DNA from: a bacterium
GTDB taxonomy: Bacteria > SZUA-79 > Acidulodesulfobacterales > Acidulodesulfobacteraceae
Direction: 5' to 3'
NCBI GenBank assembly: GCA_021818985.1
Contig: JAKASO010000002.1
Location: 43,383-107,382 of the forward strand
DNA: 64,000 bases
The notes beneath the pieces are model-generated. The model saw only the letters and a list, made by a program, of their open reading frames with translations, did no database searches and was not told the origin of the DNA. Of this stretch, positions 12,465 through 51,482 are shown one piece after another (the first letter of the stretch is position 1; every line of letters begins with the position of its first letter). The position numbers were made by a program, and so were the translations under genes.

Positions 12465-12536
12465 AATTAAAAAGAGGAAAATAATATCAATTTAAGACAT
12501 TAATGGCAAAATAAACAGATCCGGAGGTTATTTAAG

Positions 12537-13967: not shown

Positions 13968-14021
13968 GGCGATTTATAAAATAAATAAAATAAATAAGCG
14001 GAAGCGATATAACGATATAAA

Positions 14022-15389: not shown

Positions 15390-15435
15390 TTTTTTAATCT
15401 TTTCTTTTGATCTTTTCTTTTTTTAAGGATAGGCT

Positions 15436-16785
15436 ATGAAACCGTCAAACCTGAAACCATTAGGGCTGAAACCATTGGAAATAAATCCTTTAAAAGCGAG
15501 TCCGCATCTCGGCGCTGCCCTTTTTTATCTGGGAATCAAAAACGCCGTAGTGCTGATGCACGGTTCGCAGGGTTGCGCCAGTTTTGATAAAGTTACGCTC
15601 ACCAAACATTTCAGGGAAAATATCCCTATTATGACGACAGCTCTTGATGAATCGGGCGCTATTTTAGGCGGCAGCGAGTTTTTAAAATCAGGTGTTAAAA
15701 ATATAATTGAAAAGATCAAACCTGAATTTATAGGAATAACCTCAACAGGATTAACCGAAGTAAACGGGGAAGATATTGGCTCAAGCATTAAAGAATTAAA
15801 GCAGGAGGTTGGTCAATTTCCGGGTGTGAATTTGGGATATGTCAGCGCTCCTGATTATGCCGGGGTAATGGAGGACGGATATAAAAATGCCATGCTATCT
15901 TTGATAAAAGACCTTGCAGAAAAAATGAGGAAGAATCTTATTGTATTAAAGGATAAAAATAGAGGGACTAACTTAAAGGTAAATGTTTTTTGCCCGTTTT
16001 CTTTTACTTCGATGGATTTTCTTGAACTGAGGGAAGTTTTTGAGTATTTTGGGATCTTTCCGGTAATGATACCCGATCTTGGCACTTCGCTTGACGGACA
16101 TCTTGATAAAAACGGGTATCTGCAGACAACTTCCGGGGGTGTGGAATTCAACGATATAGAAAGCATATTTTTTAACGATTGCAATATAGTTATAGGATGC
16201 AGTCTTTTTGGACTGGTAGAGCCTTTAAAAAACCTGACGGGACTTAAGACATACTACTTTTCAAATATAAGCGGGCTTAAAAATACGGACGCCTTTTTTG
16301 ATTTTCTTTCAAAACTTACTTTTGCTCCGGTGCCGGAAAAATATAAAAGGCAGAGAAATCAGCTTATGGATGCATATTTAGACTCTCATTTCTATTTTTT
16401 AGGTAAAAATATTGCAATGGCTCTGGGCATAGATCTCTTAGATGAGTTTTCCGCCGTGTTTAACGAGATAGACTGCGGTCTTAAAATAGGCATAACGACA
16501 AAGACGGATCAAAATATCAAAAAAAACATTAAAAATATGTTTGAAATTTTTGATGAGGGAGATATAGATCTTCTTGATGAATTAACTTTTGATACGGGCG
16601 GCATCGATCTTTTAATTTCAAATTCAAATGCCAAATATTATGCTGAAAAATTAGGCATACCGCTTTTTAAAGCAGGATTTCCGATAATTGACGAACTTGG
16701 GCATAATTTTAAACATTTTATCCTTTACAAGGGCAGCGCTAATTTGGCATACGAAGCCGGCAACAAGTTAATTAACGGTGTTTAA
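15436..16785 (+). CDS. nifN: FeMo-cofactor scaffold protein NifN
   Basis: NPLKASPHLGAALFYLGIKNAVVLMHGSQGCASF. NifK paralogue located after nifE. Confidence 0.85.
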   Translation: MKPSNLKPLGLKPLEINPLKASPHLGAALFYLGIKNAVVLMHGSQGCASFDKVTLTKHFRENIPIMTTALDESGAILGGSEFLKSGVKNIIEKIKPEFIGITSTGLTEVNGEDIGSSIKELKQEVGQFPGVNLGYVSAPDYAGVMEDGYKNAMLSLIKDLAEKMRKNLIVLKDKNRGTNLKVNVFCPFSFTSMDFLELREVFEYFGIFPVMIPDLGTSLDGHLDKNGYLQTTSGGVEFNDIESIFFNDCNIVIGCSLFGLVEPLKNLTGLKTYYFSNISGLKNTDAFFDFLSKLTFAPVPEKYKRQRNQLMDAYLDSHFYFLGKNIAMALGIDLLDEFSAVFNEIDCGLKIGITTKTDQNIKKNIKNMFEIFDEGDIDLLDELTFDTGGIDLLISNSNAKYYAEKLGIPLFKAGFPIIDELGHNFKHFILYKGSANLAYEAGNKLINGV

Positions 16786-16849
16786 TTTTATAAAGATATG
16801 GCGGGCTTGTTAAAAAGCAGTTAAAAAAAAGCGAAAGGTGGAGGTAAAA

Positions 16850-17242
16850 ATGAAAGTTGGATTTGCGACAACCGATAATATTTTAATCAACGATCATTTT
16901 GGATGGGCTAAAAATTTTGCAGTCTATAACGTTAGCGGCAAGGGTTTTGAATTTTTAGAATCCAGAACTTTTGAGGAGGAAGAAGACGAAAATGAAAAGG
17001 TCGAGCAAAAGATAAGCCGGTTAAAGGACCTGAAAATAATCTTTGTCGAAAGTATAGGCGGCATGGCAGCGGCTAAAGTTATTAAGTCGGGAATCCATCC
17101 GGTAAAGTCGAAAGAGGGCGAGAAGATTTTTTCCGTATTAGAAAATCTCCAGAGGGTTCTTTCCACGAACCCCCCTCCATGGCTTAAGAAGATAATCCTG
17201 AAAGAGGGGATGGAAAGTTCCGGCGATGGGTTCTGGCATTAA
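16850..17242 (+). CDS. nifX: NifX/NafY-family FeMo-cofactor-binding protein
   Basis: MKVGFATTD...DHFGWAKNFAVY N-terminus, typical of the dinitrogenase FeMoco biosynthesis domain. GGAGG lies 5 nt upstream of the ATG at 16850. Confidence 0.75.
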   Translation: MKVGFATTDNILINDHFGWAKNFAVYNVSGKGFEFLESRTFEEEEDENEKVEQKISRLKDLKIIFVESIGGMAAAKVIKSGIHPVKSKEGEKIFSVLENLQRVLSTNPPPWLKKIILKEGMESSGDGFWH

Positions 17243-17311
17243 TTTTGCATTACAATTAAATAAGTAACGGACAATAACCTGATATTAGATACTTAAGCAA
17301 TCAAAATCATT

Positions 17312-17911
17312 ATGGAAAGCGAAGGCAGGATAAATTTAGATATAAAGGTATTGGTCGTGGATGATTTAAAAAAACGCCGTGACGAAGTTAAAGCTATTTT
17401 AAGCGACATCACGACTAAGATATACGAAGCCGAAAACGGGCTTGAAGCTGTTATTGCTGCCGAAAAGTTAAAGCCGGATATCATATTTATGGATATAAAA
17501 ATGCCGGCGATGGACGGCATAGAGGCGTGTAAAAAAATAATGGAAACAAATCCCCTGCCGGTCATATTTTTAACAGCCGCAGTGGAAGACAATTATGATC
17601 ATTACATAGAAAGAGTAAAGTCTTCGGGGGCATTTTCGTATATCGTAAAGCCGCCCAAAAAAAGCGAAGTGCTTGCTCAAACCATTATTGCAATAGAAAA
17701 TTTTAAGCGTTTTTATAATATAAAAAAGGAGAATGAGGACTTAAAAAAATATATCGAAGACCGGAAGTTAATAGATAAAGCTAAGGCTATTCTTGTTGAA
17801 AAGGACAAAATTTCGGAAAAGGAGGCCCTTAGGCGGCTTCAAAGGTTAAGCATGAATAGCGGTGTGCCTATCGGGGACATTGCAAAGGCTATTATAATAA
17901 CAAGTTCGTAA
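17312..17911 (+). CDS. Response regulator with REC and ANTAR RNA-binding output domains
   Basis: REC domain: VLVVDD and phospho-acceptor context DIIFMDIKMPAMDG. C-terminal ANTAR-like helices: IDKAKAILVEKDKISEKEALRRLQRLSMNSGVPIGDIAKAII. Confidence 0.85.
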   Translation: MESEGRINLDIKVLVVDDLKKRRDEVKAILSDITTKIYEAENGLEAVIAAEKLKPDIIFMDIKMPAMDGIEACKKIMETNPLPVIFLTAAVEDNYDHYIERVKSSGAFSYIVKPPKKSEVLAQTIIAIENFKRFYNIKKENEDLKKYIEDRKLIDKAKAILVEKDKISEKEALRRLQRLSMNSGVPIGDIAKAIIITSS

Positions 17912-17959
17912 TTATAAATGATTATAAATGCGTCGTTAATTAATAAGGAGGCAAAAGTT

Positions 17960-18277
17960 ATGGAAATGGTAAGGGCGATAATCAGACCGGAAAAGGAAAA
18001 AGATGTTTTATGGGCGCTGGAACAGAATGGATTTGTTTCTGTTACTAAAATGCATGTTTTTGGAAGGGGAAAACAAAAAGGTATAAAAGTCGGAGATCTG
18101 GTTTATGATGAGCTTCCTAAATTAGAGCTTATGCTTGTCGTAGAAAAAAAGGACGCGAAAAAAGTTTGCGATATTATTCAAGAAAATGCGGTTACCGGAC
18201 ATATAGGGGACGGCAAGATATTTGTGCTGCCGGTAAATAACGTTTATACGGTGAGAACCGGAGCGGAGGGATTATAA
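17960..18277 (+). CDS. nifI1: PII-family nitrogenase regulator NifI1
   Basis: MEMVRAIIRPEK...GRGKQKG T-loop...GDGKIFV. AAGGAGG lies upstream of the ATG at 17960. Confidence 0.8.
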   Translation: MEMVRAIIRPEKEKDVLWALEQNGFVSVTKMHVFGRGKQKGIKVGDLVYDELPKLELMLVVEKKDAKKVCDIIQENAVTGHIGDGKIFVLPVNNVYTVRTGAEGL

Positions 18278-18283
18278 TACAAT

Positions 18284-18694
18284 ATGGAATCAAAATTTGA
18301 AGAAAATGTTGTAGAGGTCATAGCCGTTATACGAAGGCACAAGGTTCAGGAAACAAAAAATGCCCTTTCAAAAGGGGGATTTGATCAAATGACGTTTTAT
18401 TCGGTTCACGGCAGGGGTAAGCAAAAAGGTTATGGAGGACTTGCCAATGAGCTTGACCCGGGTCTTGACCTTATCAACGAAAAATCAAATACAGCCGCCG
18501 ATAACGACTATCACTTTTTGCCGAAAAGAATGATCTCTTTGATAATTCCGGAAATAAATGCAGCTAAAGCGGTAAAAATAATTATGGATATAAATAAAAC
18601 CGGATATTACGGGGACGGAAAGATATTTATTCTGCCGATAAGGCTTGTAGAAAGGATTAGAACCGCCGAAGAGGGAACATACGCCGTTAGTTAG
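18284..18694 (+). CDS. nifI2: PII-family nitrogenase regulator NifI2 (extended T-loop)
   Basis: VIAVIRRHKV...HGRGKQKGYGG followed by a long insertion, then GDGKIFILP. It is paired with nifI1. Confidence 0.8.
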   Translation: MESKFEENVVEVIAVIRRHKVQETKNALSKGGFDQMTFYSVHGRGKQKGYGGLANELDPGLDLINEKSNTAADNDYHFLPKRMISLIIPEINAAKAVKIIMDINKTGYYGDGKIFILPIRLVERIRTAEEGTYAVS

Positions 18695-21733: not shown

Positions 21734-22937
21734 AGCTTCCTCAATAAAACCTTCTGCAACGCTTGCAATAACCGCAAAAGCAAAAAAACTTAAAAAAGAG
21801 GGTAAAAATATCGTAAGTTTTGCCGCAGGGGAACCAGATTTTGACACCCCTTTGTATATTAAAGATGCCGTTAAAGAAGCGTTAGATAAAGGTTTTACCA
21901 AGTACACCCCCGTATCTGGAATAGACGAGCTGAAATCGGCTATCTGTGATAAGTTTAAAGCAGACTACGGGGCTGTTTACGAAAATAGCGAGATTATCGT
22001 GTCGTGCGGCGGCAAGCATTCCCTGTATAACCTGTTTATGGCTTTATTAGACGACGGGGATGAGATTATAATTCCTTCGCCTTACTGGGTTTCGTATACC
22101 GAGATGATCAAGCTTGCCGGCGGAGTTCCGGTTATTGCCGATACATCGGCAAACTCGTTTAAATTTGATCTTAAAATATTAAAAAGCCATCTGTCCGGAA
22201 AGACAAGGGGGATAATTATAAACAGCCCGTCAAACCCTACGGGCAAACTTATGGATGAAAGCGATCTGATAGATATAGCAAATTTTGCCAGAAAAAATGA
22301 CCTTATTATAATTACAGACGATATATATGAAAAGATAATATTCGACGACAGAAGGTTTTTTAATGTTCTGATGGTTGATAAAGCCCTGAAGGAAAATACG
22401 GTAGCCGTAAATGCCGTTTCAAAGACGTATTCCATGACCGGTTTTCGCATTGGTTATGCCGCAGGACCTAAAGATCTGATAGCCGCAATGAATAACATTC
22501 AATCGCAGAGCACCTCTAACCCGGCATCTTTTGCTCAGTACGGGGCGCTTGCCGCAATTAAAGGCAGCCTTGATTTTACGATCAAGATGAAGGAAGAATT
22601 TGAAAAAAGAAGAAATTATATGCTTGAATATTTTGAAAATGAGATAAAAAGCATTGTTCCTTTAAAACCCGATGGAGCTTTTTATATTTTTGCGGATATT
22701 TCAAGAGTGTTTAAAGAAAGTGCAATGGAAGAAAATATAAATTCATCGCCGGAGTTTTGCCGGTATCTTTTAGATGCCTATTTAGTAACGGCGGTTCCGG
22801 GCGTGGAATTCGGAAACGATAATTTTATAAGGCTTTCATTTGCAACTCATTTTGATATGATAAAAGAAGGGTTAAGAAGGATTAAAGATGCCGTTCGTCC
22901 TCAAAGTATCAAGGAATATTATAAAAATAAAAAATAA
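21717..22937 (+). CDS. Class I PLP-dependent (aspartate) aminotransferase
   Basis: GEPDFDTP, NSPSNPTG and SKTYSMTGFRIGY (PLP lysine) motifs. Confidence 0.88.
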   Translation: MKLSCRASSIKPSATLAITAKAKKLKKEGKNIVSFAAGEPDFDTPLYIKDAVKEALDKGFTKYTPVSGIDELKSAICDKFKADYGAVYENSEIIVSCGGKHSLYNLFMALLDDGDEIIIPSPYWVSYTEMIKLAGGVPVIADTSANSFKFDLKILKSHLSGKTRGIIINSPSNPTGKLMDESDLIDIANFARKNDLIIITDDIYEKIIFDDRRFFNVLMVDKALKENTVAVNAVSKTYSMTGFRIGYAAGPKDLIAAMNNIQSQSTSNPASFAQYGALAAIKGSLDFTIKMKEEFEKRRNYMLEYFENEIKSIVPLKPDGAFYIFADISRVFKESAMEENINSSPEFCRYLLDAYLVTAVPGVEFGNDNFIRLSFATHFDMIKEGLRRIKDAVRPQSIKEYYKNKK

Positions 22938-22953
22938 AATATTTGAAAACATT

Positions 22954-24245
22954 ATGCAAAGACCGGATAAGGTTATTTTAAATTTCTTAGAAAACAGAAA
23001 TAACAATCTTTTAATAAACATCTTAAAAACCCCCCTTATCGTTTTTTCTTTGGTATTCAGACTTATTGTAAGGTTAAGAAGGTTTTTATACGAAAATGAT
23101 ATTATTTTTAAAGCGAAAGATCCCCTGATTTTTACGATCAGTATCGGCAATATCAATATGGGTGGATCTGGAAAAACCCCTTTTGCTTTTTCTATTGCCG
23201 AGTATCTTTATAATTCCGGTTTAAAACCTTGTATCGTCAGCAGGGGTTACGGCGGAAAGTTAAAAAAAAAATTTATATTGCAGGCTGGGAGCTTGATAAT
23301 AAATCAAAACTTTCAGATGAAGCCCTGTTTTTAATAGACGAGTTTAAGGCTAAAAGGTTAGAAATTCCCGTTGTGGTTTCAAAAAATAGATATAAAGGCG
23401 CCGCCGCCTGTTCCGTAAACGATATATATTATAATCTTCATTTAAAGGCTCATGACGCCGAAATATCGTCTAATAGCGGCATAAATGAAGATAACGCAGA
23501 TGTGTCAACCCGCTGCATTTATGATAAAATTCATAAAATCCATGACAAATACGAAGAATATAAAAAGATAGCGATTCTTGACGACGGTTTTACCGCTTTA
23601 AACATCCGTAAAAATATAAATATACTCCTTATAGACGGAACTAAAAATATTTTTAATCAGTTCCCCCTTCCAGCCGGCACTTTAAGGGAACCGTTGTCTG
23701 CCGTGAGGTTTTGCGATTGTTTCATTATAACTAAATCTATCGAAAAAAACAGGCTTTTAGAATCCGGTATCAGAAGGTTTAATACCGTCAGCCCGATATT
23801 TTATTCATATTATTTGCCCAAGATATTAAAGGGCGGATTAGATGGCAGTGAAACTATTCCGTTAAAAGATCTTAAAGGGAAAAGTATCGTAACGGTAAGC
23901 GCGATAGGTAATCCGGAATATTTTTATAAGAATCTCGGAGATTGTGGGATGATCGTTACGGATATACTTGAATTTAAAGATCATTATGCATACGGAAAAA
24001 AGGATATGATGAAATTAAGGAGACTTCTTAAGAAGAGCGGTAAAAATGGACCCGTCATTGCGATAACCACCTCAAAAGACTATGTTAAACTTCGTGAATG
24101 CGGTCCCGAATATAGCGACATTTTAAACAGGCTTTATTATCTTGATTTTGATCTAAAAATTGATAGTTCTTTTTACGGCTATATTTTAACTGCTTATGAG
24201 GAATATTTAAAGAAAGTTAAACCGCATAATACGCATCGTGCATAG
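22954..24245 (+). pseudogene. lpxK: Tetraacyldisaccharide 4'-kinase, split over two frames at an A10 run
   Basis: The N-terminal ORF carries GGSGKTP and VSRGYGG. The downstream ORF in the -1 frame carries SDEALFL, LDDGF and LPAGTLREP. The frames switch at the A10 run, 23262-23271. Confidence 0.75.
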
Positions 24246-44881: not shown

Positions 44882-44999
44882 TATTTGATAAACCATCTGA
44901 ACTCTAAATTGGGTTACCGGCATGAAATTGACGTTGAAACTTGCCTTCTGATATATATAATTATAACGATTTGACGGCAAAAGATCCGCAGTGTTAGAA

Positions 45000-45257
45000 A
45001 TGACCAAATACAAAGTTTCCGAAAATTTTACCTTGCACGGCGATGAAAACGGTTATTTGCTTTTTGATACCGTAAACGGCAGCATTTATAAATTAAATGA
45101 AATATCATTTAAGATAATATCGCTTATTGACGGAAACAGAACAGATCAAGAGATCAAGGAAATTATCTCGTCTGAATACAATGCTGGAATTGAAACTATT
45201 AGTAAGGATTTTGACGATCTTACAAAAATGCTTTTAGACAGGCACATAATATATTAA
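45000..45257 (+). CDS. PqqD-family (RRE-like) small protein
   Basis: Pattern GYLLFDTVNGSIYKLNEISFKIISLIDGNRTDQEIKEII...DFDDLTKMLLDRHII matches the PqqD peptide-chaperone fold. Confidence 0.6.
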   Translation: MTKYKVSENFTLHGDENGYLLFDTVNGSIYKLNEISFKIISLIDGNRTDQEIKEIISSEYNAGIETISKDFDDLTKMLLDRHIIY

Positions 45258-45326
45258 TATTAATTTGATAAAACTTTTTTATAAAAAATTTAAAAAATCC
45301 TGCAATCTGCTGTAATCTGTAATAAT

Positions 45327-46523
45327 ATGCAAAAATGGTTAAATAAAGATGTTCTTCTTATATCATTTTCCGCATTTTTTTCAGATCTTGGATATCACAC
45401 TGCAATTGCGCTATTTCCTATATTTTTAGTCATAACCCTTAAAGTGCCGGATTACGAATTCGGGTTTGCCAATGCTGTTGCATTTGGAGGGGGTGCGATA
45501 ATTGCATATTTTGGAGGCTTATTGGGTGATAAATACAGCTATAAATGGTTAGCGGTATCGGGAAATGCTTTTATCCCCCTTTTATCGCTTTTTGGTCTTG
45601 TAACAAGTCCGGTAATTGCTATTTTCCTTTTTTCAGGCGGGTGGTGGGCAAGAAATTTCAGGACACCCCCAAGAAGGGCTTTATTAGTTAGATCAACTTT
45701 TCCCGAAACCAGGGGCAAAGTATTCGGTTTTCTTCACATGCTTGATATCGGCGGTGGCATGATCTCAATCTTTACATTACTGAGCCTAATTTTAATTGGT
45801 TTAGGTTATACGCAAATTCTTTTACTGAGCGTTATACCTTTACTAATAGCAACCATACTTTTACTATTTACCGCTGATATAAAAGGACATTCAAATAATC
45901 CCGGTATAGCCGGTACAGCCGCTTCAAATTCAAATAAAGATGGCAAAGTCTTTTATACCCCTGCAAAAAAAAGTGCGTATAAAGGAATAATAATAGCTGC
46001 ATCTCTTTATGGTTTTAGCAGTTATGCCATCGGCTTTCCGATACTTACGATTGCTCAGAGATCAAACGATATACTTGGCATAGGTTCCTACGCTCTTTAC
46101 CTTGGCGTTTCTGCAGTTATAGGTTTTTGGATCGGATCTAAAAAGATGGACAGAGTAAAAACGCTTGGCATTCTCGGTTATTTATTATCCGGTTTTGGAA
46201 CTATAATGCTTGGATTGGCTTACTTTTTCCATCAAAGTCTATTTGTGTTTTACGTAGCGGTCGCTATACTTGGTTTTGCCCTGGGGATAATAGAGGTTAT
46301 AGAACCAACGCTGATTTCATTTCTAAAGGATATAAAAGATCTTGGTAAGGGAATGGGCTCTCTTACCGCATCAAGAAGCTTGGGAATATTTCTTGCAAAC
46401 TTAATAATGGGGTTTTTATATATATTTAATCCTCTTTATTCTTATACTTATGCTGGTCTTATATCAATAGCAGCGGCTATAATAGTTCTTTACTACGGCA
46501 AGGCATATAGTTTAAAAATATAG
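45327..46523 (+). CDS. MFS transporter
   Basis: About 12 predicted hydrophobic helices with a central cytoplasmic loop. Confidence 0.8.
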   Translation: MQKWLNKDVLLISFSAFFSDLGYHTAIALFPIFLVITLKVPDYEFGFANAVAFGGGAIIAYFGGLLGDKYSYKWLAVSGNAFIPLLSLFGLVTSPVIAIFLFSGGWWARNFRTPPRRALLVRSTFPETRGKVFGFLHMLDIGGGMISIFTLLSLILIGLGYTQILLLSVIPLLIATILLLFTADIKGHSNNPGIAGTAASNSNKDGKVFYTPAKKSAYKGIIIAASLYGFSSYAIGFPILTIAQRSNDILGIGSYALYLGVSAVIGFWIGSKKMDRVKTLGILGYLLSGFGTIMLGLAYFFHQSLFVFYVAVAILGFALGIIEVIEPTLISFLKDIKDLGKGMGSLTASRSLGIFLANLIMGFLYIFNPLYSYTYAGLISIAAAIIVLYYGKAYSLKI

Positions 46524-46572: not shown

Positions 46573-47004
46573 TTATGCAATTATTATCGTTTCTATAAGC
46601 GGTTTATTTTTTTTATCTGGCATCAGATAGCTTTTTATATCAGATACATCGCCCGGCTCTTTTCCTTTTACCGATAAGATCATATAAGAATAATAAGGCC
46701 ACGATGCGTCAACGTCGTAAGATGACGGTATGGCAGGGTAATTCGGATGCGAATGGTAAAATCCCACAATCTCGATATTCCCGGCTCGCGATAATTTATC
46801 TATTGCAAGCATGTCTTTAGGTTCTATCTCGAATTTATCCCATGCTATTTTTTTATATCTGTTATTTGCAGGAAAGACCGCCGTTATAGTTTTATTATCG
46901 CCTTCTATAATACCTAAAATAGCGCCGCATGCTTCGTAAGGAAAAATTTCGGCTGCATGCTTTTTTATTATATCGAGTTTATCGTTACTTATAATTATCG
47001 GCAT
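46573..47004 (-). CDS. JAMM/MPN+ metalloprotease (Mec+/HcyD/QbsD-like)
   Basis: EACG...HSHPNYPAIPSSYD (E...HxH...S..D JAMM motif). Start trimmed to the ATG at 47004, 7 nt after the upstream stop. Confidence 0.8.
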   Translation of the reverse strand: MPIIISNDKLDIIKKHAAEIFPYEACGAILGIIEGDNKTITAVFPANNRYKKIAWDKFEIEPKDMLAIDKLSRAGNIEIVGFYHSHPNYPAIPSSYDVDASWPYYSYMILSVKGKEPGDVSDIKSYLMPDKKNKPLIETIIIA

Positions 47005-47011
47005 TTTTTTC

Positions 47012-47941
47012 TTAGAGTATTCCGGTTGACAAATATCTTGAACCTGTATCCGGAAGCACCGTAACATAATTTCCTTTATATTTTTCGGATAACTTGGAAA
47101 TGGCATATATATTTGCACCCGAAGAAAATCCGCACAAAAGCCCTTCTTCTTTTATAAGCCTTTTAAGCATCGCATAACTTCCCCCGGTATCTATTTTAAT
47201 ATAGTCGTCAATTATCTTTGTGTGGTCAAAACCTTTAAAGTTGAAAGAATAATTATATTTCCATCCCTCTATGCCGTGCATTTCATTATCGGGAACTACG
47301 GCAATAACTTTTATTTTTTCGTTATATTCTTTAAGTCTTTTGCCTATCCCAAGAATAGTTCCCCCGGTTCCTATTCCGGTTGCAAAATAGGCGATATTGC
47401 CCCCGGTTTGATTTATTATCTCGATCGCGGTGGTTTCATAGTGGGATAACGGATTATTAGGGTTATTGTACTGATCGGGCATATAATATATTTTGCTGCT
47501 GCCTTTATTGTATTCATCAAGCGATTTTTTGATAGCTCCATCATGGCTTTCTTCGGCAGGCGTAAGTACAAGTTCTGCGCCATAAAGTTTGATTATTTTT
47601 TTTCTTTCTTCGCTCATATTTGAAGGGGCATAAAGTTTAACGTTAATTCCCAAATATGCGCCAATCATAGCATAAGATATTCCGGTGTTTCCTGAAGTCG
47701 AATCAAGGATGGTCATGTTTTCAGTCAGAATTTCTTTTCCAATAGCATCTTTAATCATGTAAAGAGCGGGTCTGTCTTTTATGGAACCGCCGGGATTTTG
47801 AGATTCGACCTTGGCGTATAACTTACATCCGCTTTGATAAGGAATTATATGATTTAGAAGGCATATTTGCGTTGCCCCTATGCTCGAAAATACACTGAAC
47901 GCCGATAAACCTTTTTTAAAGTTTTCTAAATTATCGTTCAT
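47012..47941 (-). CDS. Cysteine synthase family PLP enzyme (CysK/CysM-like)
   Basis: NPGGSIKDRPA (PLP lysine), TSGNTGISYA and GIGTGGT motifs. Confidence 0.9.
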   Translation of the reverse strand: MNDNLENFKKGLSAFSVFSSIGATQICLLNHIIPYQSGCKLYAKVESQNPGGSIKDRPALYMIKDAIGKEILTENMTILDSTSGNTGISYAMIGAYLGINVKLYAPSNMSEERKKIIKLYGAELVLTPAEESHDGAIKKSLDEYNKGSSKIYYMPDQYNNPNNPLSHYETTAIEIINQTGGNIAYFATGIGTGGTILGIGKRLKEYNEKIKVIAVVPDNEMHGIEGWKYNYSFNFKGFDHTKIIDDYIKIDTGGSYAMLKRLIKEEGLLCGFSSGANIYAISKLSEKYKGNYVTVLPDTGSRYLSTGIL

Positions 47942-47997
47942 CTTAACTCCGTCCAGCCAGGGCTGACGCAGGCCTTTTAAATTGTAGCGGCTCGCGG

Positions 47998-48270
47998 CTA
48001 CTTCTTCCCGCCTTTTTCGACAATAATCTCGTAGTCTGTATCGTTGATCTTGTTAATAGACAGCACCTTATGTCCTTGGTCTGTCATTGAACGGGGGACG
48101 TTTCTTATAGCCGGTTCATAATCTACGATGATCCGCAGAATTTCGCCCGGTTTTATTTTTTCTAATGCAAGTTTCGATCTTACAAACGTGAAAGGACATA
48201 TTTCGCCTTTAATATTCAATTCTTTAGCGTAGTTGTCAGTCCGGTCGTTTTCTTTAAAGAGCCCATCCAT
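47998..48270 (-). CDS. TusA/SirA-family sulfurtransferase
   Basis: GEICPFTFVRSKLALEKIKPGEILRIIVD with the conserved active Cys. 90 aa. Confidence 0.8.
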   Translation of the reverse strand: MDGLFKENDRTDNYAKELNIKGEICPFTFVRSKLALEKIKPGEILRIIVDYEPAIRNVPRSMTDQGHKVLSINKINDTDYEIIVEKGGKK

Positions 48271-48322
48271 TTTAGTTTCTCCTACTAAACTTATCTTTAT
48301 GCCTATCTTTTACCCGTTTGTT

Positions 48323-49132
48323 TTATTCATGATGGTATAATTCACAAAACTCCTCGTAATCTATCAGATCTAAGATATTTGGATTTTCGCCGCATAAAGG
48401 ACAGCACTTATCCTTTCGCAATTTCATTTCCGTAAACTTCATATCTAATGCGTCATATATTAAAAGTCGTCCATTCAAAGTATTGCCGACGCCGAGAGTG
48501 ATCTTTATTGCTTCATTAGCCTGAATGGCGCCTATTACGCCAGGTAGAACTCCAAGAACGCCCGCCTCCTGACAGCTCGGTACAAGTCCGGGGGGCGGAG
48601 GCGTTGAAAAAAGACATCTGTAACACGGGCCTTTATCTGGCAAAAAAACGGTTACCTGTCCTTCAAACCTGAAGATTGAACCGTATACTAACGGCTTATT
48701 CATAAAATGGCAGGCATCGTTTATTAAATACCTTGCCGGAAAATTATCCGTTGCATCTACTATAACGTCGTAATCTTTAATAAGTTCTTTAATATTTGCG
48801 GAATCTATCTTGTCTTTGTACGTTATGACTTTAACATCGGGATTTATCCTCTCTATCGAATCCTTTGCCGAATCAACCTTGTATCTGCCGACATCTTTAG
48901 TTCCATGCCAGATCTGCCTCTGCAGGTTCGATAAATCAACAATATCAAAATCTACTATACCGAGTGTGCCTATACCTGCGGCGCCGAGATAATACCCGCA
49001 TGGGGCTCCAAGACCGCCGGCCCCTATTAGCAGTATCTTTGACGATAACAGCTTTTCCTGTCCTTCGCCGCCGACCTCCGGCAGAATTATATGTCTTGCA
49101 TATCTTTTTATCTGTTCTTCCGTAAATTCCAA
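48323..49132 (-). CDS. MoeB/ThiF/HesA-family E1-like adenylyltransferase
   Basis: RYARHIILPEVGGEGQEKL, LIGAGGLGAP and DNFPARYL motifs. Two CxxC pairs (CYRC, CPLC). Confidence 0.9.
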   Translation of the reverse strand: MEFTEEQIKRYARHIILPEVGGEGQEKLLSSKILLIGAGGLGAPCGYYLGAAGIGTLGIVDFDIVDLSNLQRQIWHGTKDVGRYKVDSAKDSIERINPDVKVITYKDKIDSANIKELIKDYDVIVDATDNFPARYLINDACHFMNKPLVYGSIFRFEGQVTVFLPDKGPCYRCLFSTPPPPGLVPSCQEAGVLGVLPGVIGAIQANEAIKITLGVGNTLNGRLLIYDALDMKFTEMKLRKDKCCPLCGENPNILDLIDYEEFCELYHHE

Positions 49133-49174
49133 AATACCTCCTTGCCGCGTAAATAAATTAATTATATTAATTGT

Positions 49175-49690
49175 TTATTCTACTACATCAAGCACGATAG
49201 GTTCCACGGTTATGCCTTTGGATTCAAAAAATTTCACGGCTTTTTCTATTTCTGCCGGTTCACCTTCGAGTTCAAGGGCTATTATACCGATATCATTAGA
49301 GATGCTTGCACTTCTGATATTAGTTATAACGTTAAAATTTTTTCCAACTTGATAAATAATTGGTTCTTTTATTACTTCCTGTGGGTAGTTTAGGTAAAAT
49401 TTTTTTCTTTCGAAAGCGCCTCCGGCAATTGCGGGAATAATAGAAATTGTATCGCCGTCTTTAACGCTGGAGTTTATATTGTCTAAAAATCTGATATCTT
49501 CGTCATTAAGATAGACATTTACGAATCTCCTGATTTGGCTATTTTGTTCACATATCCTTTCTTTGATTCCTGCATAATTGTTTTCTAAATTGTCTATTAT
49601 TTCAATGATTGTGGCGCCGGTCGTTTCGACCTCAGACTTTCCGTTGGTTAAGGTTCTTAAAGGTGTGGGTATTCTAACGGTTATTGGCAT
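49175..49690 (-). CDS. MoaD/ThiS-like sulfur-carrier domain fused to a C-terminal NIL domain
   Basis: Residues 1-91 end in DGDTISIIPAIAGG, a typical carrier C-terminus. The Gly-Gly codons are at 49418-49423. Residues 92-171 resemble the NIL domain (NIRSASISNDIGIIALELEG...ESKGITVE). Confidence 0.7.
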   Translation of the reverse strand: MPITVRIPTPLRTLTNGKSEVETTGATIIEIIDNLENNYAGIKERICEQNSQIRRFVNVYLNDEDIRFLDNINSSVKDGDTISIIPAIAGGAFERKKFYLNYPQEVIKEPIIYQVGKNFNVITNIRSASISNDIGIIALELEGEPAEIEKAVKFFESKGITVEPIVLDVVE

Positions 49691-49705
49691 TTGATTCTCC
49701 TTAAA

Positions 49706-50959
49706 TTAATTTTTTTTGTTCTTTTTTTCGCGAATTTTACTAAGTATTTTTTCAAACTCTTCAAGGTTTGGACTGATGACATCCGGTTCTTTGAGTTTTC
49801 CATGCAGGGCTTCAAGAGTTTTTAATCCGTTGCCAGTTATGGCAAGCACGGTTGTTTCATTTTTATTTATATTGCCGTTTTTAATTAATTTTTTTGCAAC
49901 GGCAATCGTTACCCCGCCGGCAGTTTCGGTAAATATGCCCTCCGTTCTTGCAAGAAGTTTCATTCCTTCGATTATTTCTTCATCGGTTGCGTCTTCGCCG
50001 TAGCCGCCCGTATTTTTCATCAAATCTGCAGCATAATATCCATCCGCAGGATTGCCTATCGCAAGGGATTTTGCAATAGTGTCCGGTGTTTTAACCGGCT
50101 TAATGAATTCCCTTTTTTCTTTAACCGTCGAGGTTATCGGGTTACATCCGGTTGCCTGGGCTCCGAAAATCCTTGTATGTTTTTTTTCGATCAATCCAAC
50201 GTATTCGAATTCTTCTATGGCTTTGCCTACTTTTGTGATCAAAGAGCCGCCCGCCATAGGCACGACGATATTGTCCGGGGTTTTAAAACCAAGCTGTTCG
50301 AGCATTTCAAAAGTAAGCGATTTTGAACCTTCGGCATAATAAGGCCTGAGATTTATATTGACAAATCCCCAGTTGTGTTTGCCAGCAATTTCGGTGCAAA
50401 GCCTGTTAACCTTGTCGTAGCTTCCCTCGATCTTGATTAAATTAGTATTATATATAAGGGTGCCGAGGACTTTGCCTATTTCAAGGTTTGCCGGAATGAA
50501 AACAAAGCTTTCATAGCCAGAAGAAGCGGCTAAAGCGGCAACGGCGTTTGCAAGGTTACCTGTTGAAGCGCAGGCGACGATTTTAAAACCAAACTCTCTT
50601 GCTTTGGCTATTGCAACGGACACTACCCTGTCTTTGAACGATAAAGTCGGGAAATTAACGGCATCGTTTTTAATATATATTTCTTTTACGCCAAGAGCTT
50701 TTGCAAGGTTATCTGCCTTGACGAGAGGGGTAAATCCGACATCTTTTCCGATTTTGATTTCGCCTTTTATAGGCAAAAACTCCCTGTATCGCCACATATT
50801 AGGTTGTCTCGATCTGATCTTTTCCACGCTTATATTTTGTTTGATCATATCATAATCGTAATTTACTTCAAGCGGTCCAAAGCAGTAATCGCAAACATAA
50901 AGCGGGCTATCAGGGTATTCTTTGCCGCATTCCCGGCATTTTAATCCTTTTACGAACAT
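49706..50959 (-). CDS. Threonine-synthase-family PLP enzyme with an N-terminal zinc ribbon
   Basis: CRECG...CDYC ribbon, PTLSFKDR PLP lysine, ASTGN motif. First gene after the SAM riboswitch. Confidence 0.85.
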   Translation of the reverse strand: MFVKGLKCRECGKEYPDSPLYVCDYCFGPLEVNYDYDMIKQNISVEKIRSRQPNMWRYREFLPIKGEIKIGKDVGFTPLVKADNLAKALGVKEIYIKNDAVNFPTLSFKDRVVSVAIAKAREFGFKIVACASTGNLANAVAALAASSGYESFVFIPANLEIGKVLGTLIYNTNLIKIEGSYDKVNRLCTEIAGKHNWGFVNINLRPYYAEGSKSLTFEMLEQLGFKTPDNIVVPMAGGSLITKVGKAIEEFEYVGLIEKKHTRIFGAQATGCNPITSTVKEKREFIKPVKTPDTIAKSLAIGNPADGYYAADLMKNTGGYGEDATDEEIIEGMKLLARTEGIFTETAGGVTIAVAKKLIKNGNINKNETTVLAITGNGLKTLEALHGKLKEPDVISPNLEEFEKILSKIREKKNKKN

Positions 50960-51068
50960 TTTTTCTCCTGCAAATTTAGAATTTATTAGTTTTATTAGTT
51001 ATTTTTTATTATTTTTAGTTTAATTATAATTTAATAAATATATTTAAGAATATATTTAAGAAATAATG

Positions 51069-51112
51069 TAAAAAAAACCTCTTCTCTGGAAATATCTAAA
51101 GAAGAGGTTTTT
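51069..51112 (-). terminator. Intrinsic terminator forming the expression platform of the SAM-I riboswitch
   Basis: 10-bp stem AACCTCTTCT (51076-85) / AGAAGAGGTT (51100-09), followed on the minus strand by a U-run. Confidence 0.7.
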
Positions 51113-51124
51113 TAAACTCTTATC

Positions 51125-51227
51125 TTCTTATCTTCCAGGAAATTATCCTGCGGGAGTTAGCACCGAATATTGCCTCCGGTTGCTGCGGTTTCGTACGGGC
51201 CCATCCCTTCACCGCTCTTGATAAGAA
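51125..51227 (-). promoter_or_regulatory. SAM-I (S-box) riboswitch aptamer
   Basis: The minus strand reads TTCTTATCAAGAGCGGTGAAGGGATGGGCCCGTACGAAACCGCAGCAACCGGAGG...TTCGGTGCTAACTCCCGCAGG...GGAAGATAAGAA. This matches the S-box core: P1 closure, the GA-motif kink-turn, and the GGTGCTAA.TCC junction. Confidence 0.9.
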
Positions 51228-51286
51228 ATATTATCTTATGAATTTCGAATTTCAATTATCATTCAATAATTAGCCGATTTTTAAAT

Positions 51287-51315
51287 ATTTTACATTGTTG
51301 TTTTATATATGTCAA
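51287..51315 (-). promoter_or_regulatory. Sigma-70-like promoter candidate for the riboswitch operon
   Basis: On the minus strand: TTGACA (51315-51310), a 17-nt spacer, then TAAAAT (51292-51287). It lies about 55 nt upstream of the aptamer. Confidence 0.45.
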
Positions 51316-51482
51316 TGCAAATTTATAGCCTGTGCCAATTTATAGCCTGTGTGCCGGCTATTAAAATGTTTATTGCAAAACAATTACTTAAAAGGATAAT
51401 TATGCCGAATAAATAATATAAGATTTAAAATATAAAAATAATAATAATAAAGAACGTTAAGATATGCCGTTTTTTAAAAATA

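What the first reader, a model, noticed from the sequence alone, without database searches (positions are those of the whole stretch)
46573..51315. SAM-riboswitch-controlled protein-thiocarboxylate sulfur-transfer operon with two different PLP sulfhydrylase candidates
**Operon content (minus strand, one transcription unit):**
- promoter candidate
- SAM-I riboswitch with its terminator
- ThrC-like PLP enzyme
- MoaD/ThiS-type carrier
- MoeB/ThiF E1 enzyme
- TusA
- CysK/M-like PLP enzyme
- JAMM protease

**Interpretation:**
- Carrier, E1 and JAMM form the known logic of thiocarboxylate-dependent Cys (CysO/CysM/Mec+) and Hcy (HcyS/HcyF/HcyD) synthesis.
- To my recollection, a ThrC-homologue plus sulfur-carrier route to homocysteine from O-phosphohomoserine (MetM/MetO) has been reported in Streptomyces.
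- Here both a ThrC-like and a CysM-like enzyme share one carrier under SAM control. That suggests a single sulfur relay feeds both homocysteine and cysteine.
- TusA is the likely persulfide donor.
- I saw no conventional metY, metB or metC gene anywhere in the window.
Basis: partly seen in the sequence, partly recalled or inferred. Interest (0 to 1): 0.68.

Follow-up and report, generated by a model that had tools for sequence, protein, structure and literature searches.

The report
SAM-switched protein-thiocarboxylate homocysteine/cysteine operon
A methionine-status RNA switch controls six genes that make homocysteine, and probably cysteine, by carrying sulfur on the tail of a small ubiquitin-like protein; this pathway type was described in 2024, but here the carrier is made fused to a methionine-transporter-type 'NIL' domain that must be cut off, a widespread and apparently unstudied variant.

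Summary
On the minus strand, a near-consensus promoter, a SAM-I riboswitch (82 bits) and its terminator precede six tightly spaced genes:
- a ThrC-like PLP enzyme
- a ThiS-type carrier
- a MoeB/ThiF E1
- TusA
- a CysM-type PLP enzyme
- a JAMM protease

The ThrC-like protein is not a threonine synthase. It clusters with carrier-linked, often SAM-riboswitch-controlled homologues from more than 10 phyla. One of these is an actinomycete locus with the riboswitch–metM–metO layout reported for Streptomyces. Canonical ThrC forms a separate clade and coexists with the ThrC-like gene in some loci.

An invariant AIAGG is followed by an 80-residue domain that matches MetN C2. The Gly-Gly tail therefore has to be exposed by proteolysis, presumably by the operon's JAMM.

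NIL, fused or encoded by the next gene, accompanies about 80% of MetM-like loci in an unbiased sample. I found no description of this.

The cysteine branch, with one carrier feeding both enzymes, is plausible. All 11 loci that have both enzymes have a single carrier gene. It remains unproven.

Verdict: this is a new variant of a known kind and is moderately interesting.

The parts
51287..51315 (-). Sigma-70-type promoter: TTGACA, 17 nt, TAAAAT
   Evidence: 11 of 12 consensus matches, the best in the region. Sequence read.
51125..51227 (-). SAM-I (S-box) riboswitch aptamer
   Evidence: RF00162: 82.3 bits against a gathering score of 44.4, E 6.8e-18, full model 1-108.
51070..51113 (-). Riboswitch expression platform: intrinsic terminator. 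The purine-rich 3' strand of P1 (GAAGAUAAGAAGAUAAGAG) could instead pair with the CUCUUCUU 5' arm of the terminator.
   Evidence: 16-bp stem plus U8, -24.3 kcal/mol, z -5.82, 0 of 200 shuffles fold as well. The full leader folds into aptamer plus terminator. The antiterminator pairing is inferred from reading the sequence.
49706..50959 (-). MetM-like enzyme: a ThrC-fold PLP enzyme with an N-terminal CxxC...CxxC zinc ribbon. Predicted carrier-thiocarboxylate-dependent homocysteine synthase using O-phosphohomoserine.
   Evidence: - PALP 231 bits and thrC TIGR00260 282 bits.
- 51.5% identical to the Nonomuraea riboswitch-linked homologue, but 36.6% to Aquifex ThrC.
- In the neighbour-joining tree it falls in the carrier-linked clade, separate from canonical ThrC.
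- Clade-specific substitutions in conserved ThrC sequence motifs.
49418..49690 (-). Carrier domain (residues 1-91) of the ThiS-NIL precursor. CysO/MetO-type beta-grasp ending in an invariant AIAGG.
   Evidence: - ThiS PF02597 55 bits.
- Amycolatopsis CysO 4n6e_B E 3e-29; M. tuberculosis CysO 3dwg_C E 1.6e-23.
- Foldseek target-normalised TM-score (TMt) 0.90-0.92.
- 48% identical to the Nonomuraea MetO-like protein.
- AIAGG is invariant in 16 and near-invariant (I88 >=90%) in 64 fused homologues.
49175..49417 (-). Short basic linker plus NIL domain (residues 92-171) fused after the Gly-Gly. Predicted to be released by proteolysis. Candidate methionine- or homocysteine-binding module.
   Evidence: - NIL PF09383 51 bits.
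- The AlphaFold model is beta-alpha-beta-beta-alpha-beta, pLDDT 86.6.
- It superposes on the MetN C2 domain at rmsd 1.0-1.1 A over 71-75 residues.
- Invariant Asn124 aligns with the N of the MetN 'NII' motif.
48323..49132 (-). MoeB/ThiF-type E1 adenylyltransferase, 269 aa, with no rhodanese domain.
   Evidence: - ThiF 286 bits.
- NF004281 MoeB subfamily 319 bits, above its cutoff of 266. The match to MoeZ covers only the E1 part.
- GxGxxG, two CxxC pairs and the PSCQEAG cysteine can be read in the translation.
47998..48270 (-). TusA-family sulfurtransferase with the conserved Cys (GEICPFT). Inferred persulfide donor to the E1-carrier adenylate.
   Evidence: - TusA PF01206 72.8 bits against a cutoff of 28.6.
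- A TusA gene lies next to the E1 or carrier in 15 of 79 genome loci.
47012..47941 (-). CysM-type (short-loop) fold-type-II PLP enzyme. Candidate carrier-thiocarboxylate-dependent cysteine synthase.
   Evidence: - PALP 194 bits. cysKM, cysM and cysK models score 287, 277 and 259 bits, all below their cutoffs.
- It belongs to the HG[LI]EG[LWM]K subgroup that lacks the CysK loop.
- Lys aligns with M. tuberculosis CysM Arg220; overall identity is 31.5%.
46573..47004 (-). JAMM/MPN+ metalloprotease, 143 aa. Predicted to cut the carrier after Gly-Gly (removing NIL) and to hydrolyse carrier-amino-acid adducts, as Mec+ does.
   Evidence: - Prok-JAB 64.8 bits.
- The E...HSHPx7SxxD motif can be read in the translation.
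- PDB 2kcq E 9e-20.
- A JAMM gene is present in 12 of 15 genome loci with fused carriers, against 2 of 30 with GG-stop carriers.

Best explanation
This is a SAM-repressed operon for protein-thiocarboxylate-dependent sulfur amino-acid synthesis of the MetM/MetO type.

**Regulation.** When SAM is low, the riboswitch lets transcription run through its terminator. This is shown by sequence and structure only.

**Carrier maturation and loading (inferred unless stated).**
- The carrier is translated as a ThiS-NIL precursor.
- The JAMM protease cuts after the invariant Gly-Gly. This is inferred, because a free C-terminal glycine is chemically required for adenylation.
- The rhodanese-less E1 adenylates that glycine.
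- TusA persulfide delivers sulfur to give carrier-COSH. This is inferred from the known CysO/MoeZ and MoaD/MoeB chemistry.

**Homocysteine branch.** The MetM-like ThrC paralogue uses O-phosphohomoserine and carrier-COSH to form homocysteine. This is inferred from the locus layout shared with an actinomycete relative, which matches the layout reported for the characterised Streptomyces enzyme.

**Cysteine branch.** The CysM-type enzyme probably uses the same carrier-COSH with an activated serine to form cysteine. This is a weaker inference.

**Product release.** The JAMM enzyme probably also releases the amino acid from carrier-amino-acid adducts, as Mec+ does.

**NIL.** The released NIL domain is a separate gene product in most relatives. 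It is most likely a small-molecule (methionine or homocysteine) binding partner of the relay. Its role is unknown.
For: **Regulation**
- Riboswitch, terminator and promoter.

**The ThrC-like protein belongs to the MetM-like clade**
- In 79 genome loci found with the carrier (L003-L082; L063 begins inside the carrier), the ThrC-like gene lies directly upstream of the carrier in nearly all of them.
- In 54 metagenome loci found with the ThrC-like protein alone, 48 have a carrier downstream and 44 have NIL.
- A SAM-I riboswitch precedes the ThrC-like gene in 28 of 80 genome loci and 17 of 66 metagenome loci, across Verrucomicrobiota, Planctomycetota, Sumerlaeota, Thermodesulfobacteriota-type MAGs and SZUA-79.
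- Nonomuraea gerenzanensis has riboswitch (68.7 bits), then a zinc-ribbon ThrC-like gene (51% identical), then a 91-aa carrier ending AVAGG. PMC12172450 and the GapMind 2026 preprint report this layout for Streptomyces metM-metO.
- The neighbour-joining tree separates this clade from canonical ThrC. Identity is 51-62% within the clade and 35-39% between clades.
- A canonical ThrC sits in the same gene string in Nitrospirota loci.

**Carrier**
- The ThiS domain is 47-54% identical to CysO and 48% to the MetO-like protein.
- AIAGG is invariant before NIL.

**JAMM**
- A JAMM gene co-occurs with carriers that need trimming: fused 12 of 15, GG plus extension 17 of 36, GG-stop 2 of 30.

**One carrier for two enzymes**
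- All 11 loci that have both a MetM-like and a short-loop CysM-type gene have exactly one carrier gene, on the same strand.

**Conservation**
- The same six-gene order occurs in Ca. Acidulodesulfobacterium ferriphilum and in SZUA-79.
Against: - No biochemistry exists for this clade outside Streptomyces, and the S. albulus MetM sequence itself could not be obtained for direct comparison.
- PGAP-type models still call the protein thrC: TIGR00260 scores 282 bits against a cutoff of 167.
- The genome could not be searched for homoserine kinase, a canonical thrC, or conventional met and cys genes.
- The CysM-type protein misses the cutoffs of every cysteine-synthase equivalog, has Lys rather than Arg at the M. 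tuberculosis R220 position, and lacks the C-terminal tail that contacts CysO.
- The link between JAMM and carrier type is confounded. CysM/K-like genes co-occur with JAMM, and one phylum (Verrucomicrobiota) dominates the GG-stop class.
- That link was not clearly reproduced in the second, smaller sample: GG plus extension 3 of 16, GG-stop 2 of 6, fused 1 of 2.
- Some fused carriers have no JAMM gene within 6-9 kb.
Confidence: 0.72

Rival explanations
1. The operon makes only homocysteine through the relay. The CysM-type enzyme is an ordinary sulfide- or thiosulfate-using O-acetylserine sulfhydrylase that supplies cysteine, for example as the sulfur source for TusA. It does not use the carrier. 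JAMM serves only to process the precursor.
For: - The enzyme resembles E. coli CysM (E 7.5e-55) as much as any other cysteine synthase.
- It is 31.5% identical to M. tuberculosis CysM, has no Arg220 and no C-terminal tail.
- Many MetM-like loci have no CysM-type gene nearby.
- JAMM occurs without any CysM-like gene in L009, L037, L051, L055-L057 and L059.
Against: - Short-loop CysM-type genes repeatedly sit next to the JAMM and carrier genes (10 of 14 loci).
- In Aliarcobacter, the 'cysteine synthase family protein' plus M67 peptidase plus MoaD/ThiS genes coexist with separate cysE and cysK genes.
- The carrier is as close to CysO as to the MetO-like protein.
Confidence: 0.22
2. The ThrC-like gene is a bona fide threonine synthase that merely sits next to a sulfur-carrier cassette.
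For: - TIGR00260 thrC scores 282 bits, above its cutoff.
- The best PDB matches are threonine synthases.
- Public annotations read 'threonine synthase'.
Against: - It lies under a SAM riboswitch here and in 45 other sampled loci.
- It is always paired with a Gly-Gly carrier.
- It forms a clade distinct from canonical ThrC, which is encoded alongside it in at least 14 loci.
- Residues that are invariant in the ThrC comparison set are replaced, for example R162 to Y, N159 to R, T90/S91 to L/A and W251 to G.
- The GapMind 2026 preprint states that MetM is commonly misannotated as threonine synthase.
Confidence: 0.03
3. The cassette is a ubiquitin-like protein-conjugation system (SAMP/Urm1-like) or a sulfur relay for tRNA thiolation or molybdopterin. 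It is not for amino-acid synthesis.
For: - There are weak matches to SAMP1 (53 bits), UbaA E1 (358 bits) and desampylase (62 bits).
- TusA is known from tRNA thiolation and Moco pathways.
Against: - All of those matches fall below their model cutoffs.
- No MoaE, TtuA/NcsA or E2-like gene is in the cluster.
- Two PLP beta/gamma-replacement enzymes and a SAM riboswitch frame the cassette.
- The closest carriers are CysO-type.
Confidence: 0.03

Closest known systems
MetM/MetO O-phosphohomoserine thiocarboxylate pathway of Streptomyces albulus (Hasebe et al. 2024; summarised in bioRxiv 10.1101/2024.10.14.618325 and PMC12172450)
   Same: - A ThrC-homologous enzyme sits next to a Gly-Gly sulfur carrier.
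- A SAM riboswitch lies upstream.
- It needs an E1 (MoeZ) and a JAMM hydrolase (Mec).
- An actinomycete locus with this layout shares 51% (enzyme) and 48% (carrier) identity with the window.
   Different: - Here the carrier is fused to a NIL domain, which is absent from the actinomycete locus.
- The E1, JAMM, TusA and a CysM-type enzyme are all in the same riboswitch-controlled operon.
- The E1 lacks the rhodanese domain of MoeZ, and a TusA gene is present instead.
CysO/CysM/Mec+/MoeZ cysteine pathway of Mycobacterium tuberculosis (PMC12910592; PDB 3DWG)
   Same: - The carrier domain is 47% identical to CysO, with TM-score 0.90.
- A CysM-type short-loop PLP enzyme lies next to a JAMM gene.
- The E1-dependent thiocarboxylate logic is the same.
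   Different: - The PLP enzyme is only 31.5% identical, with Lys at the Arg220 position and no C-terminal tail.
- Control is by SAM.
- The carrier is shared in cis with a MetM-like enzyme.
HcyS/HcyD/HcyF/MetY homocysteine pathway of Wolinella succinogenes (Krishnamoorthy & Begley 2011; cited in PMC5764234; details from my own knowledge)
   Same: - It is a thiocarboxylate-dependent route to homocysteine.
- The carrier is made with a C-terminal extension that a JAMM-type metalloprotease removes before E1 activation.
   Different: - The extension there is a single residue; here it is an 80-residue folded domain.
- The sulfhydrylase there is MetY (fold type I, O-acetylhomoserine); here it is a ThrC-fold enzyme.
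DUF39 (MA1821) plus NIL-ferredoxin (MA1822) homocysteine pathway of methanogens and Desulfovibrio (PMC5764234)
   Same: A NIL domain is genetically tied to homocysteine formation.
   Different: - No DUF39 or COG2122 gene and no ferredoxin domain occur here.
- The substrate there is aspartate semialdehyde, and no carrier protein is involved.
MetN C2 (NIL) domain of the MetNI methionine importer (PDB 3DHW, 3TUI, 3TUZ)
   Same: - Same fold, with rmsd about 1.0 A over 71-75 residues.
- The Asn of the NIL motif is conserved.
- In MetN this domain binds methionine for trans-inhibition. This is from my own knowledge; 3TUZ is the selenomethionine soak.
   Different: It is not attached to an ABC ATPase. 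Ligand binding is untested here.
PDB 1V8C, Thermus thermophilus 'MoaD related protein' (168 aa)
   Same: It has the same two-domain architecture: a ThiS/MoaD domain ending VAGG, followed by a ferredoxin-like domain. Foldseek aligns 168 columns at 26% identity.
   Different: - The domain orientation differs (whole-chain rmsd about 15 A).
- The depositors gave no function, and the gene context was not examined here.
MoaD-MoaE fusions that need cleavage after Gly-Gly (PMC11237513)
   Same: These are precedents for a sulfur carrier encoded with a downstream partner domain, so that the Gly-Gly must be freed after translation.
   Different: They belong to a different pathway (molybdopterin) and have a different fusion partner.

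Membership tests
SAM-I riboswitch (Rfam RF00162) | Covariance-model score at or above the curated gathering score, over the full four-helix model | tested here: met
   82.3 bits against 44.4, model positions 1-108 of 108.
SAM-I riboswitch (Rfam RF00162) | Expression platform that couples the aptamer to gene control | tested here: met
   An intrinsic terminator lies directly 3' of P1: -24.3 kcal/mol, z -5.8. The antiterminator pairing is inferred from the sequence only.
SAM-I riboswitch (Rfam RF00162) | SAM binding and SAM-dependent termination | not testable with these tools
   This needs in-line probing or in vitro transcription.
MetM (carrier-thiocarboxylate-dependent homocysteine synthase, ThrC homologue) | ThrC-fold PLP enzyme with the catalytic Lys motif | tested here: met
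   PALP 231 bits; the SFKDR motif is shared with ThrC.
MetM (carrier-thiocarboxylate-dependent homocysteine synthase, ThrC homologue) | Groups with metM-type genes rather than with canonical threonine synthases | tested here: met
   The neighbour-joining tree and identities (51.5% to the Nonomuraea riboswitch-linked gene, 36.6% to Aquifex ThrC) place it in the carrier-linked clade. Caveat: the S. albulus MetM sequence itself was not available. The Nonomuraea locus stands in for it because it has the same locus layout.
MetM (carrier-thiocarboxylate-dependent homocysteine synthase, ThrC homologue) | Adjacent MetO-type Gly-Gly carrier and an upstream SAM riboswitch | tested here: met
   The carrier gene starts 15 nt after the ThrC-like stop. 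The riboswitch is shown.
MetM (carrier-thiocarboxylate-dependent homocysteine synthase, ThrC homologue) | Forms homocysteine from O-phosphohomoserine plus carrier-COSH | not testable with these tools
   This needs an enzyme assay.
CysO/MetO-type sulfur carrier (ThiS/MoaD beta-grasp) | Beta-grasp fold with sequence similarity to CysO | tested here: met
   E 3e-29 and 1.6e-23 to CysO chains. Foldseek target-normalised TM-score (TMt) 0.90-0.92.
CysO/MetO-type sulfur carrier (ThiS/MoaD beta-grasp) | C-terminal Gly-Gly at, or within a few residues of, the end of the translated protein | tested here: not met
   Gly90-Gly91 are followed by 80 residues of linker and NIL domain in the same ORF. The protein can act as a carrier only after cleavage.
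M. tuberculosis-type CysM (O-phosphoserine, CysO-COSH-dependent cysteine synthase) | Fold-type-II PLP enzyme of the short-loop CysM type | tested here: met
   It lacks the CysK 'SGG.PGPH.IQGIGAGF' loop, as do the M. tuberculosis and, from memory, E. coli CysM.
M. tuberculosis-type CysM (O-phosphoserine, CysO-COSH-dependent cysteine synthase) | Arg220, the ligand for the O-phosphoserine phosphate | tested here: inconclusive
   Lys aligns with Arg220 in the window and in all 15 short-loop members. The residue is basic but not Arg.
M. tuberculosis-type CysM (O-phosphoserine, CysO-COSH-dependent cysteine synthase) | Extended C-terminal tail that enters the active site and contacts CysO | tested here: not met
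   The protein ends ...RYLSTGIL. The M. tuberculosis enzyme continues for about 19 more residues.
M. tuberculosis-type CysM (O-phosphoserine, CysO-COSH-dependent cysteine synthase) | Passes a curated cysM or cysK equivalog cutoff | tested here: not met
   TIGR01138 scores 277 against 394, TIGR01139 259 against 351, and TIGR01136 287 against 344.
Mec+/HcyD-type JAMM hydrolase | JAMM motif (E...HxHx7Sx2D) and linkage to carrier and E1 genes | tested here: met
   Prok-JAB 64.8 bits. The EACG...HSHPNYPAIPSSYD motif is in the translation. The gene is in the operon.
Mec+/HcyD-type JAMM hydrolase | Cleaves after the carrier Gly-Gly | not testable with these tools
   There is only comparative support: fused 12 of 15 against GG-stop 2 of 30. 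It was not clearly reproduced.
MoeZ (E1 with C-terminal rhodanese domain) | ThiF adenylation domain | tested here: met
   ThiF 286 bits; the MoeB subfamily model NF004281 scores above its cutoff.
MoeZ (E1 with C-terminal rhodanese domain) | Fused rhodanese domain that carries the persulfide | tested here: not met
   The protein is 269 aa. The match to the 392-position MoeZ model covers positions 14-275 only. A separate TusA gene follows.
DUF39 plus NIL-ferredoxin homocysteine pathway | DUF39/COG1900 protein, and a NIL domain fused to a 4Fe-4S ferredoxin domain | tested here: not met
   There is no DUF39 gene in the window or its flanks. NIL is fused to ThiS, not to a ferredoxin.

The most novel reading that the evidence does not exclude
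The NIL module is an integral, so far undescribed component of most MetM/MetO-type homocysteine systems outside actinomycetes. In the fused form it is made 1:1 with the carrier, as a ubiquitin-style precursor that a JAMM protease splits. Once released, it binds methionine or homocysteine and feeds back on, or adapts, the relay. That role would link the carrier-dependent pathway, the DUF39/NIL-ferredoxin homocysteine pathway and the MetN transporter through one ligand-sensing domain.
Probability: 0.3. Interest if true: 0.65.

Novelty: new variant of a known kind. Interest (0 to 1): 0.45.

Why it matters
- The MetM/MetO route was shown in one actinomycete genus in 2024. The comparative data here suggest it is a major homocysteine route in many uncultured phyla: Verrucomicrobiota, Nitrospirota, Planctomycetota, Omnitrophota, SZUA-79 and others. 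Its key enzyme is annotated as threonine synthase, so automated reconstructions will wrongly predict methionine auxotrophy.
- The operon in the window is a compact, self-contained version: sensor, carrier precursor, E1, sulfur donor, two PLP enzymes and a protease. It would suit in vitro reconstitution.
- The NIL partner is unexplained. It accompanies about 80% of MetM-like loci.
- The NIL fusion is a bacterial case of a ubiquitin-like protein made as a fusion precursor that must be cleaved.
- It also offers a concrete handle on what NIL domains do in homocysteine metabolism.

Tried and rejected
1. **In-frame ThiS-stop-NIL.** In the carrier-seeded genome sample, 47 of 50 split loci had NIL in the same frame as ThiS. 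This looked like read-through or recent fission.
   - The locus tool ranks by the best single tblastn HSP, which favours in-frame pairs (see the order of E-values).
   - In the MetM-seeded sample the frames were 18, 11 and 7. That is only a mild excess, with several stops in many spacers.
   - I rejected it as a selection artefact.
2. **Primary papers.** Hasebe 2024 (PMC11497804) and Krishnamoorthy & Begley 2011 (PMC3089676) are not held. Their content is taken second-hand from PMC12172450, bioRxiv 10.1101/2024.10.14.618325 and PMC5764234, or from my own knowledge.
3. **Actinomycete cysM/mec locus.** I searched the plasmid collection with the CysM-like and JAMM proteins. The searches did not return Nonomuraea. 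They did turn up the Aliarcobacter sulfur island. The Pseudanabaena JAMM hit sat in an unrelated context.
4. **JAMM versus carrier C-terminus.** The link was strong in the first sample. In the second the numbers were too small and mixed. I keep it as suggestive only.
5. **Literature on ThiS-NIL fusions.** Searches for NIL with ThiS/MoaD/JAB, homocysteine or 'sulfur carrier protein' found no description of them. Absence from this library is not proof of novelty.
6. **Whole-genome check.** So I could not check the source MAG (GCA_027328245.1) or Ca. Acidulodesulfobacterium genomes for thrB, canonical thrC, metX/Y/B/C or cysE/K.

Full report
**1. What is there**

The window's minus strand between 51315 and 46573 holds one compact transcription unit.
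- The promoter is TTGACA-17-TAAAAT, 11 of 12 matches and the best in the region (sequence).
- A SAM-I riboswitch aptamer follows at 51227-51125: RF00162, 82.3 bits against a gathering score of 44.4.
- Next comes a strong intrinsic terminator at 51113-51070: 16-bp stem, eight U, -24.3 kcal/mol, z -5.8. The whole leader folds as aptamer plus terminator.
- The purine-rich 3' strand of P1 could instead pair with the CUCUUCUU arm of the terminator. This would be the usual SAM-off design. It is inferred from the sequence only.
- Six genes follow, with gaps of 15, 42, 52, 56 and 7 nt and no convincing internal terminator.

Pfam and NCBIfam identify the six genes:

| Gene | Coordinates | Evidence |
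|---|---|---|
| ThrC-like PLP enzyme with N-terminal CxxC...CxxC ribbon | 50959-49706 | PALP 231 bits |
| ThiS + NIL two-domain protein | 49690-49175 | ThiS 55 bits, NIL 51 bits |
| 269-aa ThiF/MoeB E1, no rhodanese domain | 49132-48323 | ThiF 286 bits |
| TusA | 48270-47998 | 72.8 bits |
| CysK/M-like PLP enzyme | 47941-47012 | PALP 194 bits |
| JAMM protease; real start is the ATG at 47004 (143 aa) | 47004-46573 | Prok-JAB 64.8 bits |

**2. Source and surroundings**

- The contig is from a metagenome-assembled genome: GCA_027328245.1, DAHVVE010000095.1, 147 kb.
- Its nearest named relatives are Ca. Acidulodesulfobacterium and SZUA-79. The carrier is 81-85% identical to theirs.
- These relatives have the same six genes in the same order.
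- Pfam calls for every gene across the window and about 10 kb beyond its right-hand end show no metB/C/Y/Z-type, metA/X, hom, thrB or second thrC gene.
- The rest of the genome could not be searched.

**3. The ThrC-like protein is MetM-like, not a threonine synthase**

I used two independent samples.

*Genome loci found with the carrier:*
- The ThrC-like gene sits directly upstream of the carrier in nearly all of the 79 loci that could be assessed.

*Metagenome loci found with the ThrC-like protein alone:*
- Of 54 loci with at least 1.5 kb downstream, 48 have a carrier and 44 have NIL.

*Riboswitch linkage:*
- A covariance model built from five Rfam-verified SAM-I elements finds a SAM-I riboswitch immediately upstream of the ThrC-like gene in 28 of 80 genome loci. 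It does so in 17 of 66 metagenome loci with enough upstream sequence.
- These loci span several phyla.

*The actinomycete comparison:*
- In Nonomuraea gerenzanensis the layout is SAM riboswitch (68.7 bits), then a zinc-ribbon ThrC-like gene (51% identical to the window's), then a 91-residue carrier ending AVAGG.
- This is the arrangement reported for Streptomyces metM-metO (PMC12172450; bioRxiv 10.1101/2024.10.14.618325). The latter paper also warns that MetM is commonly misannotated as threonine synthase.

*Tree and residues:*
- A neighbour-joining tree puts all carrier-linked proteins, including Nonomuraea and the window, in one clade.
- Canonical ThrC falls apart from it: Aquifex 2ZSJ plus a second, short paralogue that follows the NIL gene in Nitrospirota loci.
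- Identities are 51-62% within the clade and 35-39% between clades.
- Residues that are invariant in the canonical ThrC comparison set are systematically replaced: R162 to Y, N159 to R, T90/S91 to L/A, W251 to G (2ZSJ numbering).
- A sole threonine synthase repressed by SAM would make little physiological sense. This last point is my inference.

**4. The carrier and its NIL domain**

*The ThiS domain:*
- It is CysO/MetO-type: E 3e-29 to Amycolatopsis CysO and 1.6e-23 to M. tuberculosis CysO.
- It is 47-54% identical to CysO and 48% to the Nonomuraea MetO-like protein.
- Sequence therefore does not assign it to one enzyme partner.

*The fusion:*
- AIAGG is invariant in 16 fused homologues and near-invariant (I88 at 90% or more) in 64. 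It is followed by a short basic linker and the NIL domain.
- An AlphaFold model (pLDDT 86.6) gives a beta-grasp domain plus a beta-alpha-beta-beta-alpha-beta domain.
- The second domain superposes on the MetN C2 domain at about 1.0 A. The whole chain matches the architecture of PDB 1V8C, an uncharacterised Thermus 'MoaD related protein'.
- The invariant Asn124 aligns with the Asn of the MetN NIL motif. From my own knowledge, that MetN domain binds methionine for trans-inhibition.

*Consequences:*
- E1 adenylation needs a free C-terminal glycine, so the precursor must be cut after Gly91. The operon's JAMM protease is the obvious candidate.
- Known precedents are HcyD trimming HcyS (my own knowledge) and MoaD-MoaE fusions that need cleavage (PMC11237513).

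*Distribution of NIL:*
- In most relatives, NIL is a separate gene right after a carrier that ends in GG-stop or GG plus 1-12 residues.
- So NIL is a partner of the system and not merely a pro-peptide.
- It is absent from the actinomycete locus.

*JAMM co-occurrence:*
- In the genome sample, JAMM genes track carriers that need trimming: fused 12 of 15, extended 17 of 36, GG-stop 2 of 30.
- This is confounded with the presence of CysM/K-like genes and with phylogeny.
- The second sample was too small to confirm it.

**5. The CysM-type enzyme**

- It scores below every curated cysteine-synthase cutoff.
- It is roughly equidistant from CysK, CysM and CBS structures.
- I aligned it against M. tuberculosis CysM.
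- The alignment shows 31.5% identity, membership of a short-loop CysM-type subgroup (HG[LI]EG[LWM]K), Lys at the Arg220 position and no C-terminal tail.
- Members of this subgroup sit next to JAMM and carrier genes in 10 of 14 loci.
- All 11 loci that have both this enzyme and a MetM-like gene have exactly one carrier gene, on the same strand.
- An Aliarcobacter plasmid carries a 42%-identical 'cysteine synthase family protein' plus an M67 peptidase plus MoaD/ThiS, alongside ordinary cysE and cysK.
- A cysteine branch that shares the carrier is therefore the best reading. It rests on context, not on diagnostic residues.

**6. Mechanism proposed**

| Step | Status |
|---|---|
| Low SAM permits read-through | Sequence and structure shown; function inferred |
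| ThiS-NIL is cleaved by JAMM | Inferred |
| E1 adenylates Gly91, and TusA persulfide gives carrier-COSH | Inferred from CysO/MoeZ chemistry; the E1 lacks rhodanese and TusA is its neighbour |
| MetM-like enzyme plus O-phosphohomoserine gives homocysteine | Inferred from the locus layout shared with an actinomycete relative |
| CysM-type enzyme gives cysteine | Weaker inference |
| JAMM also resolves carrier-amino-acid adducts, as Mec+ does | Inferred |
| NIL binds methionine or homocysteine and modulates or adapts the relay | Speculative |

**7. Comparison and novelty**

- The core is the known MetM/MetO pathway combined with CysO/CysM/Mec logic.
- New relative to what I could find:
  - the NIL partner and its fusion to the carrier;
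  - the rhodanese-less E1 plus TusA;
  - the packaging of both PLP enzymes with a single carrier under one SAM riboswitch.
- The variant is widespread, not peculiar to this genome.
  - The 120 best carrier homologues, down to 51% identity, all carry both domains.
  - NIL accompanies 44 of 54 MetM-like loci.
- I rate it a new variant of a known kind, of moderate interest.

Noticed in passing
window 8288-18694: A nitrogenase-type gene cluster sits in a SZUA-79/Acidulodesulfobacterium-like MAG. It comprises a NifH-like gene, a radical-SAM gene, a methyltransferase, four Oxidored_nitro (NifDK/EN-like) genes, a Nitro_FeMo-Co gene, an ANTAR response regulator and two P-II genes (Pfam calls for L085).
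   Followed up: no
window 51320-51355 (minus strand): A tandem direct repeat lies just upstream of the -35 box of the riboswitch promoter: GGCACACAGGCTATAAATT then GGCACAGGCTATAAATT. It may be a protein-binding site adding a second layer of control (read).
   Followed up: no
L041, L046, L048, L049, L057, L058, L059, L068; also L093, L103, L115, L123, L127, L156: In Nitrospirota/Thermodesulfovibrionia-type loci, a canonical short ThrC (Aquifex 2ZSJ-like) lies directly downstream of the NIL gene. Both O-phosphohomoserine-consuming paralogues are therefore in one gene string.
   Followed up: partly
L010-L062 (genome loci), L091-L170 (metagenome loci): In most relatives the carrier and NIL are separate adjacent genes. 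An apparent 47 of 50 in-frame arrangement in the first sample fell to 18 of 36 in the sample seeded on the MetM-like protein. The first figure is mainly a ranking artefact of the locus tool.
   Followed up: yes
PDB 1V8C (via model m6d0a4ce3a600): The Thermus thermophilus 'MoaD related protein' (168 aa) was solved in 2004 without a function. It has the same architecture of a ThiS-GG domain plus a ferredoxin-like domain. It may be a solved member of this carrier-precursor family.
   Followed up: no
L012, L013, L015, L025, L043, L045, L053 (two E1 genes); L020, L039 (two carriers): Nitrospira-type loci have two E1 genes flanking the MetM-like/ThiS/NIL core. Two verrucomicrobial loci have two ThiS-type ORFs in tandem. 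This suggests that some lineages have dedicated rather than shared relay components.
   Followed up: no
L087 (Aliarcobacter cibarius plasmid pACIB, 54602-72991): A plasmid-borne sulfur island carries the following genes:
- ssuD
- a 'threonine synthase'
- cysteine and sulfate transporters
- a cysteine synthase family protein
- an M67 peptidase
- MoaD/ThiS
- a rhodanese
- a family 2A encapsulin with cysteine desulfurase cargo
- cysE
- cysK
   Followed up: no
window 22888-24245: LpxK appears split into two overlapping ORFs of 148 aa and about 290 aa (Pfam calls in L084). It could be a frameshift, a pseudogene or an assembly error.
   Followed up: no
window 44991-46523: A small PqqD-family protein (88 aa) and an MFS transporter lie between the glycogen phosphorylase gene and the operon, convergent with the JAMM gene. 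No partner peptide-maturation genes were seen nearby.
   Followed up: no
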